Shown: one piece after another, positions 11,584 to 15,858 of the stretch
Position numbering within the stretch: position 1 is the stretch's first letter
Layout of the letters: every line of letters begins with the position of its first letter
Source of the DNA: Candidatus Helarchaeota ASGARD archaeon Hel_GB_B
GTDB lineage: Archaea > Asgardarchaeota > Lokiarchaeia > Helarchaeales > HEL-GB-B
Assembly: GCA_005191425.1 (NCBI GenBank)
Contig: SUPR01000030.1
Location: 4,611 to 36,610, forward strand
Length of the DNA stretch: 32,000 nucleotides
Reading direction: 5' to 3'
The notes under the pieces: generated by a model
What the model saw: only the letters and a program-made list of their open reading frames with translations
Databases searched by the model: none
What the model was told of the DNA's origin: nothing
Program-made: the position numbers and the translations under genes

Positions 11584-11676
11584 GATATGATGAATGAAAT
11601 CAACTTATGATTTTGCTCCCACATATTATTTAGATAATATTTACTTTTTAATTGTGTGTCTCTAAAATACAATAAT

Positions 11677-12387
11677 ATGAACGAAAACACTCTTTTTGAT
11701 GTACGAAGCCTTTATATTTTAAAGGACGGAGTGCCAGTTTTTCATTGGCATTATATTAATGACAAAGAATTGAATATAGAAAAAGAAGAGAAAGATTCGG
11801 TTTTAATTTCTGGCTTTTTAAGTGCAATTGTAGTATTTGCAAATGAAATAGGGATCGGAGAGCCCAAGAGTTATTTGACAGATGACATCAAATTTTCCTT
11901 TTTGAATAAAAATGGTTTTCTATTTGTAATTTCTATTGAAAAGGACATCCCTGACGAACAAGCCTATGATTTTTTGAATATAGTTTCCAAGACATTTATC
12001 AAATTATATGATGTAGGTGATTTTCATAACTTACAAGCGATAAATTTCGATGAATTTAAAGAATATTTATTTGAAATAATAAAGAAATTCAATATAAAAA
12101 ATATAACAAATGAAAAAATAAATGAGGATGAGATTATAAAAGAAATCCCAAATAAGAGCAATATATATAAAAATTTAATTCCAAAATGCTATATTGATTT
12201 AGAAAGAAATAAACACTTTTCTAGTTTAAGGCGTACTTTATTTAAATTAATTGATGGGAATATTTCGATATATAATATTGCCCAGAAAATGAACTATAAC
12301 CCACAGGACATTTATTATACACTACGGTCATATGAAAAATTTGGATATATTCAGATCAAAAAAATTGATAATAATGAAGAATCCTAA
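11677..12387 (+). CDS. Longin-like domain protein with C-terminal winged HTH
   Basis: YILKDGVPVF...LISGFLSAIVVFANEIG...FLFVISI...L..V...F..LY is an Asgard longin pattern. The C-terminus LFKLIDGNISIYNIAQKM......IYYTL..YEKFGYI is wHTH-like. ATG at 11677 is preferred over the track's GTG at 11656. Confidence 0.65.
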   Translation: MNENTLFDVRSLYILKDGVPVFHWHYINDKELNIEKEEKDSVLISGFLSAIVVFANEIGIGEPKSYLTDDIKFSFLNKNGFLFVISIEKDIPDEQAYDFLNIVSKTFIKLYDVGDFHNLQAINFDEFKEYLFEIIKKFNIKNITNEKINEDEIIKEIPNKSNIYKNLIPKCYIDLERNKHFSSLRRTLFKLIDGNISIYNIAQKMNYNPQDIYYTLRSYEKFGYIQIKKIDNNEES

Positions 12388-12530
12388 AGAAAAAGGGCAT
12401 AAAAATGTAAATAAATAAGGAAAAAAAGTACGAACAAAAAACAAATTTTTTAAAAAATAAACCAAGGTTTTAAGATAAAAGATAGTTTTAGATGGTATAA
12501 AAAAGGTAAACTAGAAATCAAGGGGAGTCG

Positions 12531-12723
12531 AGAAAATATATTTATGCAGAAGCGATAAGGCTCTTCCGTGTTCGGGATGGGTAACGGGTGTTTCCCTTCA
12601 CCTATGATCGTGATTAAAGTCACAACCATCCTAAGTTCCCATACACTCTCGTAGTATAGTACAGTTAGGACCGCGTGAAGGCTTAATTCGGCGTCTTATT
12701 ACTTCTTTTGCATTATATTTCCT
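12531..12723 (-). other. Processing stem around the 5S gene with outer canonical and inner relaxed bulge-helix-bulge motifs
   Basis: 5' arm AGGAAATATA-ATGC-AAA-AGAAGTAATAAG-AC-GCCG-AAT pairs with 3' arm CGGA-AGA-GC-CTTATCGCTTCT-GCAT-AAA-TATATTTTCT. Confidence 0.85.
12563..12686 (-). rRNA. rrf: 5S rRNA gene, circularly permuted: 3' half 12686-12620, linker 12619-12614, 5' half 12613-12563
   Basis: Minus strand: TTAAGCCTTCACGCGGTCCTAACTGTACTATACTACGAGAGTGTATGGGAACTTAGGATGGTTGTGA-CTTTAA-TCACGATCATAGGTGAAGGGAAACACCCGTTACCCATCCCGAACACGGAAG. The halves total 118 nt. Helices seen: I TCACGATC/GGTTGTGA, II GTGAAGG/CCTTCAC, TCCTAA/TTAGGA, and a GAGA tetraloop; the conserved CCCATCCCGAAC is present. 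Confidence 0.93.
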
Positions 12724-13254
12724 CAAACAGGAAATAAAACGATTTTAAAGGTGTATAGCTTAAATTTTAAGTTATAAATTAAATTAAGATTATAAATTAC
12801 CATAAATAATGAAATTTAAAGTTTTTCTATATAAAAATGAATTATGCAAATTTCAAGTGAAAATTAAATTTTTATGATCAAATGTACATTTTTAAGACAA
12901 ATAAAATAAAAAAAATAAATGGTAAAAGAAATTAATTGGAAAAATATATTAATTTTAGAAGTATTAATAAAAATAATTAATGGGATTTGGAAAACTCCAT
13001 AAATAAAAATAAATTAAGATTATTCGGGGTTAAAGAATTTTTAAAAGATAGATAAAGGCTATAAATATTAGGAAGTTTCAATAGAAATTGGAAAATAATT
13101 AGATAAAATTTAAATTTCACCAAAAAATATTAATGAATAAAAAAGTAAAAAAATTTAAATAAAATAGATTATATGAAAAAAAGAATTAATTTTTAAAAAC
13201 TTATGAAATAAATACTAAAAATCAATTGGTTAAAATAATTGGAGTAAAGTAATA

Positions 13255-14379
13255 ATGACATTTGGAACCGATAATATATGGACAATGGTATATAATGCTA
13301 TTTTTCTTTTAGTTATAATAATATTTTCATTATATGGACAAAAATTACAGAGTCTTTTTTGGTTGCAATCGATAAAGAATGCTGTAGAAGAATTAAAATC
13401 AATGACATTAAAAGCTAGGGATTTACTTGTAGAAAAAATAAAGGAAATAGGGAAACCAAAAAAAGATCCAAAAGCAGCAGTAAATTCTTTTCTGGAATTT
13501 TTCACAGTTACACCGGTAGATTTAGACCCCGCAGGAGTTATTCAAAGGTTAGAGCATGTATTAGATGTCAGAAAAAATCGTTGGGAAGAGCAAGTAAAAC
13601 AGATGGCGCCAGAAGCTAATGAGGTATATGCGGCAAATATTGAGAATGCATTAGAAGCTGCACTTGGGCTCCATCAAATTTTTAAAACTGTAAGGCATTA
13701 TTATATTTTAGGTAAAAAGTCAAAAAGCCTAATGGTGATTATGCAGATTCAGATGCAGTTGTCATTAATAATGCAACAAGCTAAAGCAGTAGAAAATGCT
13801 TTAAATGCCTTTATAGAAGGTAAGCCTATTGGTGATAGCGTAGGGCCTTTAGTAGTAACTAAATTGGTCCAAAATTATGGCTCTGAAGGTAATCCCGTTA
13901 AGAAAATTGAAGACTATACAAAAGAAATAAATCTTTATGAATTAAACATTGAGGGCAGAAATGCATTTATTATAAGAGCAAAGGGGCCAGGTGCAACAGT
14001 AGGAAAGCCGGGTGAAGCAATTAAAAAACTATTAAATGAGAAAAAAAATATTTCAAGGTTATTTATGGTGGATGCTGGGTTGAAATTAGAAGGAGAGAAA
14101 ACAGGTGCGGTAATTGAAGGTGTAGGTGCGGTAATTGGTGGTTTTGGAGTAGAAAAATACAAAATAGAAGAAGCAGCTGGAGTAAAAAACAAATTACCAA
14201 TGGACGGGTATGTAATAAAAGAATCAATTGAGGATGCTTATGGTCCAATGAAAAAAGAGATTGCTGATGGTGCCGATAAAGCCGTAAAATTATTGATCCA
14301 AGGAATAAAAGAACGAACTTTAGAGAACGACAATATTATAATTGCTGGAATTGGAAATTGTTGCGGTATAGGCGATTAA
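13255..14379 (+). CDS. DUF1512 family protein (N-terminal TM; C-terminal HybD/YyaC-like domain)
   Basis: P.DLDPAG...RL.H.L, GKPIGDSVGPLV, GPG.TVGKPG, MVDAGLKLEGE.TG...EG.G..IGG.G.EK..IE and terminal IAGIGN..GI are characteristic of archaeal DUF1512. Confidence 0.8.
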   Translation: MTFGTDNIWTMVYNAIFLLVIIIFSLYGQKLQSLFWLQSIKNAVEELKSMTLKARDLLVEKIKEIGKPKKDPKAAVNSFLEFFTVTPVDLDPAGVIQRLEHVLDVRKNRWEEQVKQMAPEANEVYAANIENALEAALGLHQIFKTVRHYYILGKKSKSLMVIMQIQMQLSLIMQQAKAVENALNAFIEGKPIGDSVGPLVVTKLVQNYGSEGNPVKKIEDYTKEINLYELNIEGRNAFIIRAKGPGATVGKPGEAIKKLLNEKKNISRLFMVDAGLKLEGEKTGAVIEGVGAVIGGFGVEKYKIEEAAGVKNKLPMDGYVIKESIEDAYGPMKKEIADGADKAVKLLIQGIKERTLENDNIIIAGIGNCCGIGD

Positions 14380-15390: not shown

Positions 15391-15858
15391 TTAAATATTA
15401 TCCAAATCGCCCAAGGCTGATTTTAAATCTTCTTCTTCATCACTTAGAGCTCCACTTTCAAATGGTGGTTGTTCGCCTAAGAATTCGCTCAATACTTTCT
15501 CTAGTTCAGATGAAGCGGATTTCATTACTAATCTAATCATCCCAATGTTTACGTCTTTATCACTGATTAAACATAAAACGCCTGACCCACATGATGCTGC
15601 GAAAATTTTGCCATCATCGAATTCAGAGGTTACTATATTTAAATTTCCAATATCCAATGACCTACCCTGTTCTTCACTAGCACAAAATACGGCTGAAGCA
15701 ATAGCTCCGATCCCATCAACGTCCACGGGATAATAGGAAAATTTAGAAACATGAGCTATTGTTAATCCCGTCCTATCTGCTAAGATAACTTTTTTGATAC
15801 CCGGTTCGCTCTTTATAATTCTCGCGAGAATTTTATCGAACGCTTTTACATCCATCAT
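15391..15858 (-). CDS. Roadblock/LC7 (MglB-like) domain protein with acidic tail
   Basis: GIKKVILADRTGLTIA, IGAIASAVF...E..G..L..G.L, E...GKIF...CGSGVLCLI...VNIGMIRL.M....ELE. Confidence 0.9.
   Translation of the reverse strand: MMDVKAFDKILARIIKSEPGIKKVILADRTGLTIAHVSKFSYYPVDVDGIGAIASAVFCASEEQGRSLDIGNLNIVTSEFDDGKIFAASCGSGVLCLISDKDVNIGMIRLVMKSASSELEKVLSEFLGEQPPFESGALSDEEEDLKSALGDLDNI

What the first reader, a model, noticed from the sequence alone, without database searches (positions are those of the whole stretch)
12563..12686. Circularly permuted 5S rRNA gene
Seen: on the minus strand the 3' half of 5S (UUAAGCCUUCAC...GGUUGUGA, 12686-12620) comes before the 5' half (UCACGAUC...CCCAUCCCGAACACGGAAG, 12613-12563), joined by CUUUAA. 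Rejoining the outer ends gives a 118-nt 5S with helices I, II, IV and V pairing and the conserved loop C ...CCGAACACGGAAG|UUAAGCC. Known: permuted tRNA genes (Thermofilum pendens, Cyanidioschyzon merolae) and permuted SRP RNA (Thermoproteus) are repaired by splicing endonuclease and ligase. I do not know of a described gene-level permutation of 5S rRNA; this needs a literature check. Inference: this organism makes 5S through a splicing-dependent circular intermediate, and such genes would be missed or called partial by rRNA annotators. That could explain 5S genes apparently missing from some genomes.
Basis: partly seen in the sequence, partly recalled or inferred. Interest (0 to 1): 0.95.

Follow-up and report, generated by a model that had tools for sequence, protein, structure and literature searches.

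The report
Permuted, ring-forming Asgard 5S rRNA gene
This Asgard archaeon, like most of its phylum, encodes its only detectable 5S ribosomal RNA with the back half before the front half, between cut signals of the tRNA-splicing enzyme; RNA data from a relative show the transcript is cut there and rejoined in ring order, which explains why 5S genes seemed missing from these close relatives of eukaryotes.

Summary
On the minus strand, 12686-12620 is the 3' part of a 5S rRNA, 12619-12614 is a CUUUAA cap, and 12613-12563 is the 5' part. Rfam gives only two sub-threshold half hits, and no other 5S hit exists in the 93.7%-complete genome.

The layout is not an artefact:
- Two other assemblies hold it at 100% identity.
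- A covariance model of the permuted form finds it full length in about 89 of 151 sampled genomes of the phylum and about 124 of 151 of the class.
- Five single-contig genomes have no canonical 5S. Four families have canonical genes instead.

Leader and trailer form bulge-helix-bulge (BHB) motifs. In 30 of 37 loci the best motif predicts a join that restores the canonical loop C spacing. The window has an outer canonical BHB and an inner relaxed one.

RNA contigs from four metatranscriptomes, laid on a relative's complete genome, cover only the 123-nt unit. In three runs they join its ends at the predicted cut sites, and the contigs span both the cap and the joint.

Most likely the mature 5S is a closed ring. 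This was not shown for this organism, nor for ribosomes. No paper describing it was found. This scan noted the same layout before in at least 65 other genomes.

The parts
12563..12686 (-). Permuted 5S unit, 124 nt. This is the predicted mature RNA after cutting and joining G12563 to U12686.
   Evidence: (R1 111 bits). Bounds are set by the inner BHB cut sites and by homology to the RNA-verified unit of L195.
12620..12686 (-). 3' part of 5S: the 3' side of the loop B/C region, helix II 3' strand (CCUUCAC), helices V and IV, and helix I 3' strand (GGUUGUGA).
   Evidence: second RF00001 hit aligns to the 3' half of the model; covarying helices.
12614..12619 (-). CUUUAA cap that closes helix I where a normal 5S has its two ends.
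   Evidence: 8-bp helix I closed by this loop. In 37 relatives the cap is UUCG in 20 and of the U/C-N-C-G type in 27.
12563..12613 (-). 5' part of 5S: helix I 5' strand (UCACGAUC), helix II 5' strand (GUGAAGG), helix III and loop C (CCCAUCCCGAAC).
   Evidence: first RF00001 hit, model positions 1 to about 66 at high posterior.
12687..12706 (-). Leader side of the inner, relaxed BHB: helix AGAAGUAAUAAGAC (12706-12693), central strand GCCG (12692-12689), bulge AA^U with the cut after 12687.
   Evidence: central 3 of 4 pairs, outer 6 of 8. The same-genus locus L020 has UCCG/CGGA at 4 of 4 and 8 of 8, in the same register.
12548..12568 (-). Trailer side of the inner BHB: central strand CGGA (12568-12565, still inside the 5S), bulge AG^A with the cut after 12563, helix GCCUUAUCGCUUCU (12561-12548).
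12707..12724 (-). Leader side of the outer, canonical BHB: helix GAGGAAAUAUA (12724-12714), central AUGC (12713-12710), bulge AA^A with the cut after 12708.
   Evidence: 4 of 4 central, 8 of 8 outer pairs, 166-nt product; present in the MFE fold, z -5.47. L020 has GUAC/GUAC, which is two compensatory changes.
12530..12547 (-). Trailer side of the outer BHB: central GCAU (12547-12544), bulge AA^A with the cut after 12542, helix UAUAUUUUCUC (12540-12530).
12741..12780 (-). A+T-rich stretch with TATA-like boxes (TTTATAA at 12777-12771, TTTAAAA at 12749-12743). Possible own promoter.
   Evidence: Read. Relatives have TTTATA about 25-35 nt before their leader helix. Inference only.
12499..12504 (-). 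T6 run downstream of the trailer. Possible archaeal terminator.
   Evidence: Read. Inference only; the bacterial-type scan found none.

Best explanation
This is the organism's functional, and apparently only, 5S rRNA gene, encoded in circularly permuted order. It is transcribed on its own from the minus strand as a precursor of about 200 nt.

Leader and trailer pair into a long stem with two nested BHB motifs. The splicing endonuclease EndA cuts in the 3-nt bulges, and the ligase RtcB joins the ends. The outer canonical BHB would give a 166-nt ring. The inner relaxed BHB then behaves like a 42-nt intron, and its removal joins G12563 to U12686. That join restores the canonical loop C sequence ...CACGGAAG-UUAAGCC....

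Helix I is closed by a loop, so the product is a covalently closed 124-nt ring that folds like a normal 5S and most likely serves in the ribosome as such.

Shown: the permuted order, its conservation, the BHB geometry, and the ring-order joint in RNA of a relative. Inferred: the enzymes, the order of the two cuts, processing in this organism, and the ring as the ribosomal form.

My odds: about 0.9 for a real gene matured by BHB cut and rejoin, and about 0.6-0.65 for the ring being the final form.
For: Gene and order
- Searches show the swapped halves.
- No other 5S hit in the genome.
- 100% identical in two other assemblies.
- It lies in an 867-bp gap between ORFs.

Conservation
- Model R1 finds full-length permuted units in about 89 of 151 phylum genomes and about 124 of 151 class genomes.
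- It finds them in all 7 genomes of the order.
- Five single-contig genomes have no canonical 5S.

Structure
- 94.8% of cells pair, against 65.7% in shuffles and 29-46% when partners are slid.
- 22 of 23 pairs show changes on both sides.
- Rejoined and canonical sequences share one five-helix fold.

BHB
- In 30 of 37 loci the best-scoring BHB among 100 cut-site pairs leaves exactly 3 nt between helix III and UUAAGC.
- Cognate leader/trailer helices pair at 6.6 of 8 positions, against 3.1 of 8 for non-cognate pairs.
- The gene-level break point differs between lineages, at four positions, yet gives the same mature sequence.
- The window's precursor folds with z -5.47 and shows the outer BHB.

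Enzymes: EndA in two copies and RtcB are present.

RNA, on relative L195
- Contigs of four metatranscriptomes cover only 311-433.
- The joint 433 to 311 ('goes back 123') appears in three runs, at the predicted cuts.
- Contigs of 152-153 nt span both the cap and the joint.
- Loose ends carry the same junction from related species and from the fourth run.

Cap
- Tetraloops of the U/C-N-C-G type in 27 of 37 loci.
- Extended hairpins in 4 of 37.
Against: - No RNA data exist for this organism; the RNA evidence comes from another family of the phylum.
- The window's inner BHB is imperfect: a G.A in the central helix and two mismatches in the adjoining helix. The MFE fold does not form it.
- Assembled contigs cannot show RNA ends or relative amounts. 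A re-opened linear form, or a ring that is only an intermediate, is therefore not excluded (caveats).
- RNA libraries can contain DNA. Against that, the flanks have zero depth.
- Four families of the phylum do well with canonical linear genes, among them one in the same class.
- The genome is 93.7% complete, so a second, canonical gene in the missing part cannot be ruled out.
Confidence: 0.65

Rival explanations
1. The ring is only an intermediate. After BHB cutting and ligation the RNA is re-opened in or near the helix I cap, giving an ordinary linear 5S of about 118 nt. This is how permuted tRNAs of Cyanidioschyzon are finished by end-processing enzymes.
For: Permuted tRNA genes mature this way (cited in PMC4267664). 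Archaeal 16S rRNA rings are re-linearised (PMC12918454). Contigs cannot show ends or amounts. Canonical linear 5S works in four Asgard families.
Against: - The cap is a stable tetraloop in 27 of 37 loci, with no tRNA-like or BHB element at it.
- Four lineages extend it into a longer closed hairpin.
- RNA contigs at depth up to 150 run through the cap and the joint in one piece, while the precursor flanks have zero depth.
- Permuted SRP RNA stays circular (PMC4731332).
Confidence: 0.22
2. Only the outer canonical BHB is used in this organism. The 42 nt between the two BHBs would then stay as an insertion next to loop C, giving a 166-nt ring.
For: The window's inner BHB is weak and is absent from the MFE fold. 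Large insertions in 5S are tolerated in Halococcus (PMC7530397, title and abstract).
Against: - The same-genus locus has a perfect inner BHB in the same register.
- L195 also has a nested leader, and its RNA shows only the inner, 123-nt joint.
- An insertion here would disrupt the conserved loop B/C spacing, which is kept at exactly 3 nt in 30 of 37 loci.
Confidence: 0.06
3. The transcript is trimmed but never rejoined. A linear, permuted 5S with its ends beside loop C works in the ribosome, as in brown-algal mitochondria.
For: Permuted mitochondrial 5S rRNAs are permuted in the final product too (PMC4267664).
Against: The joint is seen in RNA of a relative in three runs, plus loose ends in a fourth. 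The BHB geometry restores the canonical sequence to the nucleotide. Four different break points give one mature sequence.
Confidence: 0.04
4. Artefact or dead gene: a misassembly, or a decaying 5S pseudogene, with the real gene in the unassembled 6% of the genome.
For: The genome is a 182-contig MAG, 93.7% complete.
Against: - The region is identical in two other assemblies.
- The order is conserved with covariation across more than 25 families.
- It is the sole 5S in five closed genomes.
Confidence: 0.02

Closest known systems
Permuted, circular SRP RNA of Thermoproteus (Plagens et al. 2015, PMC4731332; abstract read)
   Same: A gene-level permutation of an essential structured RNA. The new ends lie near a functional loop. 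The splicing endonuclease processes the site. The ends are ligated into a stable, functional ring. The gene was missed by standard searches.
   Different: A different RNA (5S rRNA, a ribosome component). It is spread over most of a phylum rather than a few species. It has nested BHBs, a sliding break point and additional 30-nt introns. Function of the ring has not yet been shown.
Circularly permuted tRNA genes (Cyanidioschyzon merolae, Soma et al. 2007, as cited in PMC4267664; Thermofilum pendens from my own knowledge)
   Same: The 3' half is encoded before the 5' half. A leader-trailer BHB is present. A circular RNA is formed by the splicing machinery.
   Different: In tRNAs the ring is an intermediate that is opened at the acceptor stem. 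Here the natural ends are capped by a tetraloop and no opening signal is seen.
Circular pre-16S/pre-23S rRNA, circular or permuted mature 23S rRNA in archaea (PMC12918454, PMC7758197)
   Same: A BHB in a processing stem, with EndA and ligase producing rRNA rings. For 23S the ring, or a permuted form, is reported inside ribosomes.
   Different: Those genes are collinear and the RNA is circularised at its natural ends. The same paper states that 5S is not processed this way. Here the gene itself is permuted, so joining is obligatory to restore loop C.
Permuted mitochondrial 5S rRNA of brown algae (Valach et al. 2014, PMC4267664)
   Same: A 5S rRNA whose termini are not at helix I and whose helix I equivalent is a closed hairpin. 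It is missed by the standard model.
   Different: The ends lie at the junction of two domains, the RNA stays permuted and linear, and no BHB or ligation is involved.
Minor circular forms of canonical 5S rRNA in Halobacterium and Sulfolobus (PMC12558985)
   Same: Ring forms of 5S RNA do exist in archaea.
   Different: They arise from normal genes, have variable junctions, are not BHB-defined, and the authors suggest they may be part of the 5S degradation process.
Engineered E. coli ribosomes with circularly permuted 5S inserted in 23S (PMC7283268, abstract)
   Same: The abstract reports a bacterial strain built by linking a circularly permuted 5S rRNA to 23S rRNA, so the ribosome tolerates a 5S whose ends are not the natural ones.
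   Different: It is artificial, bacterial, and not a free ring.

Membership tests
5S rRNA (Rfam RF00001) | Score at or above the 38-bit gathering cut-off on the genomic sequence | tested here: not met
   two half hits of 24 and 19.9 bits. This failure is what a permutation predicts.
5S rRNA (Rfam RF00001) | Three-way junction with helices I-V and the conserved loop C and loop E sequences, once the sequence is put in canonical order | tested here: met
   the rejoined 120 nt align full length with 7 canonical Asgard 5S, and the alignment folds into helices I, II, III, V and IV; covariation in helices I, III, IV and V. Helix II (GUGAAGG/CCUUCAC) was read from the sequence. cmscan on the rejoined sequence could not be run.
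5S rRNA (Rfam RF00001) | It is the cell's 5S, meaning no other 5S gene exists | tested here: inconclusive
   None found in the 93.7%-complete genome. Five closed relatives have only the permuted gene.
Permuted RNA genes repaired by the archaeal splicing machinery (tRNA, SRP RNA type) | 3' part encoded upstream of the 5' part on one strand, in one transcription unit | tested here: met
Permuted RNA genes repaired by the archaeal splicing machinery (tRNA, SRP RNA type) | Leader and trailer form a BHB (two 3-nt bulges on opposite strands, 4 bp apart) whose cuts give the functional junction | tested here: met
   The outer BHB is canonical. The inner BHB is relaxed in the window and perfect in its congener. 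30 of 37 loci restore the exact spacing.
Permuted RNA genes repaired by the archaeal splicing machinery (tRNA, SRP RNA type) | Ligated junction present in RNA | tested here: inconclusive
   Met in relative L195: joint 433 to 311 at the predicted sites in three runs. No RNA run is listed for the window's organism.
Permuted RNA genes repaired by the archaeal splicing machinery (tRNA, SRP RNA type) | Splicing endonuclease and RNA ligase encoded in the genome | tested here: met
   PF01974 twice (98.6 and 75.1 bits); RtcB at 568 bits.
Permuted RNA genes repaired by the archaeal splicing machinery (tRNA, SRP RNA type) | Cleavage of the precursor by EndA and ligation by RtcB, demonstrated | not testable with these tools
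   Needs an in vitro cleavage assay or a knock-down.
Permuted mitochondrial-type 5S (mtPerm-5S) | The final RNA stays linear and permuted, with an open three-way junction | tested here: not met
   The break is beside loop C, not at the junction. RNA of a relative shows the ends joined.

The most novel reading that the evidence does not exclude
In most Asgard archaea the ribosome carries a covalently closed circular 5S rRNA, made obligatorily by the tRNA-splicing enzymes from a permuted gene. The permutation is old (ancestral to most of the phylum). The canonical linear genes of four families, one of them in this class and holding a 4.4-Mb single-contig genome, would be secondary reversions or replacements.
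Probability: 0.5. Interest if true: 0.92.

Novelty: new variant of a known kind. Interest (0 to 1): 0.88.

Why it matters
5S rRNA is universal and its gene is normally trivial to find. Yet 5S genes "could not be predicted" even in closed Asgard genomes (PMC8813620).

A phylum-wide permuted gene explains that gap and gives annotators a model to fix it.

It would make 5S maturation in these archaea depend on the tRNA-splicing endonuclease and ligase. That adds a ribosomal RNA to the short list of permuted genes repaired at RNA level.

It also predicts a ring-shaped 5S in the ribosomes of the closest prokaryotic relatives of eukaryotes. That prediction can be tested directly with RNase R, gels, read-level RNA-seq or cryo-EM.

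Finally, it bears on a recent statement that archaeal 16S and 23S, but not 5S, pass through rings (PMC12918454).

Tried and rejected
- **Rfam at gathering threshold** on the whole window gave nothing. ARAGORN found no tRNA.
- **Pattern scan of genome contigs** for the swapped order was too loose. Of the four archaeal matches I read, three were chance and only L045 (Jordarchaeia) was a real permuted 5S; the bacterial matches were not read.
- **RNA runs for the window itself:** no RNA holder listed.
- **cmscan on the rejoined sequence** is not possible, because the tool reads only stored sources. I replaced it with an alignment plus RNAalifold.
- **Single-sequence MFE folds** of the unit (linear or circular) recover helices I, IV and V but mis-pair helices II and III. 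I did not use them as evidence.
- **RNAalifold on the first MAFFT alignment** missed helix II because of a one-column misalignment.
- **An unconstrained BHB scan** over wide flanks picks chance motifs in the A+T-rich DNA of family f4. I replaced it with a scan limited to 10 x 10 cut sites.
- **Outer BHBs outside the window's genus** look present in some loci (L018, L031, L005) but I could not separate them from chance.
- **Inserts without a clear intron motif:** no BHB was found for the 31-nt insert in the helix I cap of L025. L017 and L022 have only a relaxed one.
- **Sigma-70 and intrinsic-terminator scan** is uninformative for an archaeon.

Full report
**The sequence.** On the minus strand:
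- 12686-12620 reads UUAAGCCUUCAC...GGUUGUGA.
- 12619-12614 is CUUUAA.
- 12613-12563 reads UCACGAUC...CCCAUCCCGAACACGGAAG.

Rfam at its curated thresholds sees nothing in the 32-kb window. In E-value mode RF00001 gives two adjacent sub-threshold hits in swapped order, 19.9 bits for the 3' half and 24 bits for the 5' half, against a cut-off of 38. The same two hits are the only 5S signal in the organism's 3.54-Mb, 93.7%-complete assembly.

The locus lies alone in the 867-bp gap between two plus-strand ORFs. One ORF has a weak Longin-domain match (24.5 bits, below Pfam's 26.2-bit cut-off) and the other is a DUF1512 protein. A Roadblock/LC7 gene is nearby. That gene content fits an Asgard archaeon. 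One relative found by pattern search is titled Candidatus Jordarchaeia.

**Not an artefact.** Two other assemblies, one NCBI MAG and one ENA assembly, carry the 261 bases around the locus at 100% identity. One of them differs from the window at 4 of 4046 positions overall, so it is a separate assembly of a close strain.

**Conservation.**
- RF00001 over 41 relatives gave full, above-threshold 5S genes only in one family (f5). All others gave weak, often paired half hits.
- Reading those loci showed the same swapped order in all of them.
- I aligned 19 units (A1), built a covariance model (R1) and searched whole genomes.
- All 7 genomes of the order hit.
- In the class, 134 of 151 genomes hit. 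About 124 of these are strong, full-length matches.
- In the phylum, 106 of 151 genomes hit. About 89 of these are strong, spread over more than 20 families.
- The weak hits belong to families f5, f10, f15 and f19. Their representatives have ordinary 5S genes at 64-85 bits.
- Five single-contig genomes with the permuted unit have no canonical 5S at all.

These counts are samples of related genomes, not independent trials.

**It is a 5S.**
- On 37 units from about 25 families aligned to the model (A2), 94.8% of cells pair. Shuffles give 65.7%, and sliding the partners gives 29-46%.
- 22 of 23 pairs show changes on both sides. The alignment was fitted to the model, which favours it somewhat.
- After cutting at the predicted sites and putting the pieces in normal order, the 37 sequences align full length with 7 canonical Asgard 5S rRNAs. 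RNAalifold returns helices I, II, III, V and IV.
- The window's rejoined RNA is 120 nt plus cap nucleotides and is 50-67% identical to the canonical ones.

**The processing signal.** In the archaeal BHB each strand reads, 5' to 3': helix, 4-nt central strand, 3-nt bulge cut after its second base, helix. This register is from my own knowledge of the motif.
- *Inner BHB.* The leader reads ...AGAAGUAAUAAGAC-GCCG-AA^U. The trailer reads CGGA-AG^A-GCCUUAUCGCUUCU. Cutting and joining gives CACGGAAG-UUAAGCC, the canonical loop C continuation. This motif is relaxed in the window: a G.A in the central helix and 6 of 8 pairs next to it. The same-genus locus L020 has UCCG/CGGA and 8 of 8 pairs in the same register.
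- *Outer BHB.* Around the inner one lies a textbook motif: GAGGAAAUAUA-AUGC-AA^A on the leader and GCAU-AA^A-UAUAUUUUCUC on the trailer. It appears in the unconstrained MFE fold of the 201-nt precursor (-64 kcal/mol, z -5.47). L020 keeps it with GUAC/GUAC, which is two compensatory changes.

Across 37 loci I scored all 100 combinations of 10 leader and 10 trailer cut sites. In 30 loci the best BHB is the one that leaves exactly 3 nt between helix III and UUAAGC, as in normal 5S. The helices next to the cuts are lineage-specific (36 different 8-mers). They pair at 6.6 of 8 positions with their own partner and 3.1 of 8 with others.

**A sliding break point.** The gene-level break sits at different places in different lineages:
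- CGGA^AG in Jordarchaeia, Odin-size genomes and others.
- AA^G in type A loci of family f4.
- AAG^UU in the window's order.
- GGUC^CCAUCC, on the other side of loop C, in type B loci.

Types A and B even occur within one genus. All give the same mature sequence. That makes sense only if the RNA is rejoined.

**Enzymes.** The genome encodes two EndA paralogues (192 and 218 aa) and RtcB. From my own knowledge, two-paralogue endonucleases accept relaxed BHBs. That was not tested here.

**RNA evidence.** No RNA run is listed for the window's organism. I therefore used L195, the locus of a 2.81-Mb single-contig genome of family f16.
- *Prediction.* Its BHB predicts a retained RNA from A433 down to A311 on the minus strand.
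- *Runs.* Four metatranscriptome runs from four studies hold part of it.
- *Coverage.* Laid on L195:180-570, their contigs cover only 311-433. Depth is zero in both flanks.
- *Joint.* Three runs show the joint from 433 to 311, 'goes back 123', exactly at the predicted cuts. In one run two contigs carry it, with 66 bases on the shorter side.
- *Wrap-around.* Contigs of 152-153 nt wrap around the 123-nt unit and include both the helix I cap (360-363) and the joint.
- *Loose ends.* Loose ends at 311, 410 and 433 are the same junction (CCACGGA-AGUUAAG...) from related species. In the fourth run the loose end is an adapter followed by the exact junction.

Limits of this evidence: these are assembled contigs, so they show connectivity and not ends or amounts. 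RNA libraries can hold DNA, although the closed genome has one unit with unique flanks that receive no cover. And it is a relative, not this organism.

**Ring or re-opened?** The cap is UUCG in 20 of 37 loci and of the U/C-N-C-G type in 27. In four lineages it is lengthened into a longer closed hairpin. No BHB or tRNA-like element sits there. Together with contigs that pass through both cap and joint, I put the ring as final form at about 0.6-0.65. A ring that is later re-opened is at about 0.2.

**Literature.** Ten full-text searches were allowed and eight were used.
- No paper describing a gene-level permuted archaeal 5S was found.
- Known relatives are the circular permuted SRP RNA of Thermoproteus (PMC4731332), permuted tRNA genes, circular or permuted 23S (PMC7758197, PMC12918454), permuted mitochondrial 5S that stays linear (PMC4267664), and minor ring forms of normal 5S with variable ends (PMC12558985).
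- PMC12918454 states that 16S and 23S, 'but not 5S rRNAs', are circularised.
- PMC8813620 reports that 5S genes could not be predicted in closed Heimdallarchaeum genomes.
- The library lacks most subscription journals, so prior description elsewhere cannot be excluded.

**Earlier notes of this scan.** The same layout was noted before in at least 65 other genomes, and a later check priced the ring claim at 35/100. None of the notes shown mentions an RNA joint. Notes on this same stretch proposed the nested BHBs and the capped helix I. I tested those here and agree.

**Verdict.** This is a real, conserved, functional 5S gene in permuted order, a new variant of the known 'permuted gene repaired by the splicing machinery' kind. 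There is direct RNA support for the rejoining in a relative. The ring-in-the-ribosome question remains open and testable.

Noticed in passing
L024:1493-1665 (minus) compared with L023; also L006, L031, L017, L022: Several permuted 5S genes of family f4 carry an extra 30-nt insert at different sites (helix IV strand or loop, loop C). L024, L006 and L031 have a proper BHB around it. Splicing L024 restores the sequence of its congener L023 exactly. These look like introns inside 5S genes. Many class genomes have units about 173 nt long, and a few about 203 nt, so such inserts seem common.
   Followed up: partly
L013, L015 (type B) against L012, L023 (type A), all genus g10; L006, L007, L017, L022 (genus g7): Two different gene-level break points, on either side of loop C, occur within one genus with the same leader CUGGAA. 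The leader copies the 5' strand of helix III. This suggests the break can move by recombination between these short repeats or through an RNA copy.
   Followed up: partly
G177:C1:1399892-1400758 (L217-L219); L003, L004: Family f5 of the same class has canonical 5S genes. In a 4.4-Mb single-contig genome there are three tandem copies about 375 nt apart. These are only 50-53% identical to the window's rejoined 5S, against 67% for a canonical gene of another family (f19). The canonical state here may be secondary.
   Followed up: partly
L195:434-470 (minus strand leader), likewise L194: The leader holds CGUGAGA twice, separated by a 23-nt hairpin. An outer cut and join would create a 30-nt BHB intron, so this is another form of nested BHB. 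RNA contigs show only the inner joint.
   Followed up: partly
L025:1493-1666 (minus): A 31-nt insert sits inside the helix I cap, forming a UUCG-capped extension hairpin. No BHB was found, so it may stay in the mature RNA as an expansion.
   Followed up: partly
window 11656-12387 (+), 13255-14379 (+), 15391-15858 (-): The neighbours are a protein with a weak Longin-domain match (24.5 bits, just under Pfam's cut-off), a DUF1512 protein and a Roadblock/LC7 (MAPKK1_Int) protein. These are eukaryote-like trafficking and GTPase-regulator folds typical of Asgard genomes.
   Followed up: no
G000:C36:44408-44659 (-) and G000:C98:28593-28853 (-): There are two splicing-endonuclease paralogues (192 and 218 aa). 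This suggests a heteromeric enzyme of the kind known to accept relaxed BHBs. I did not examine them further.
   Followed up: no
If real, it fits heavy use of the splicing machinery in this organism. I did not check it.
   Followed up: no
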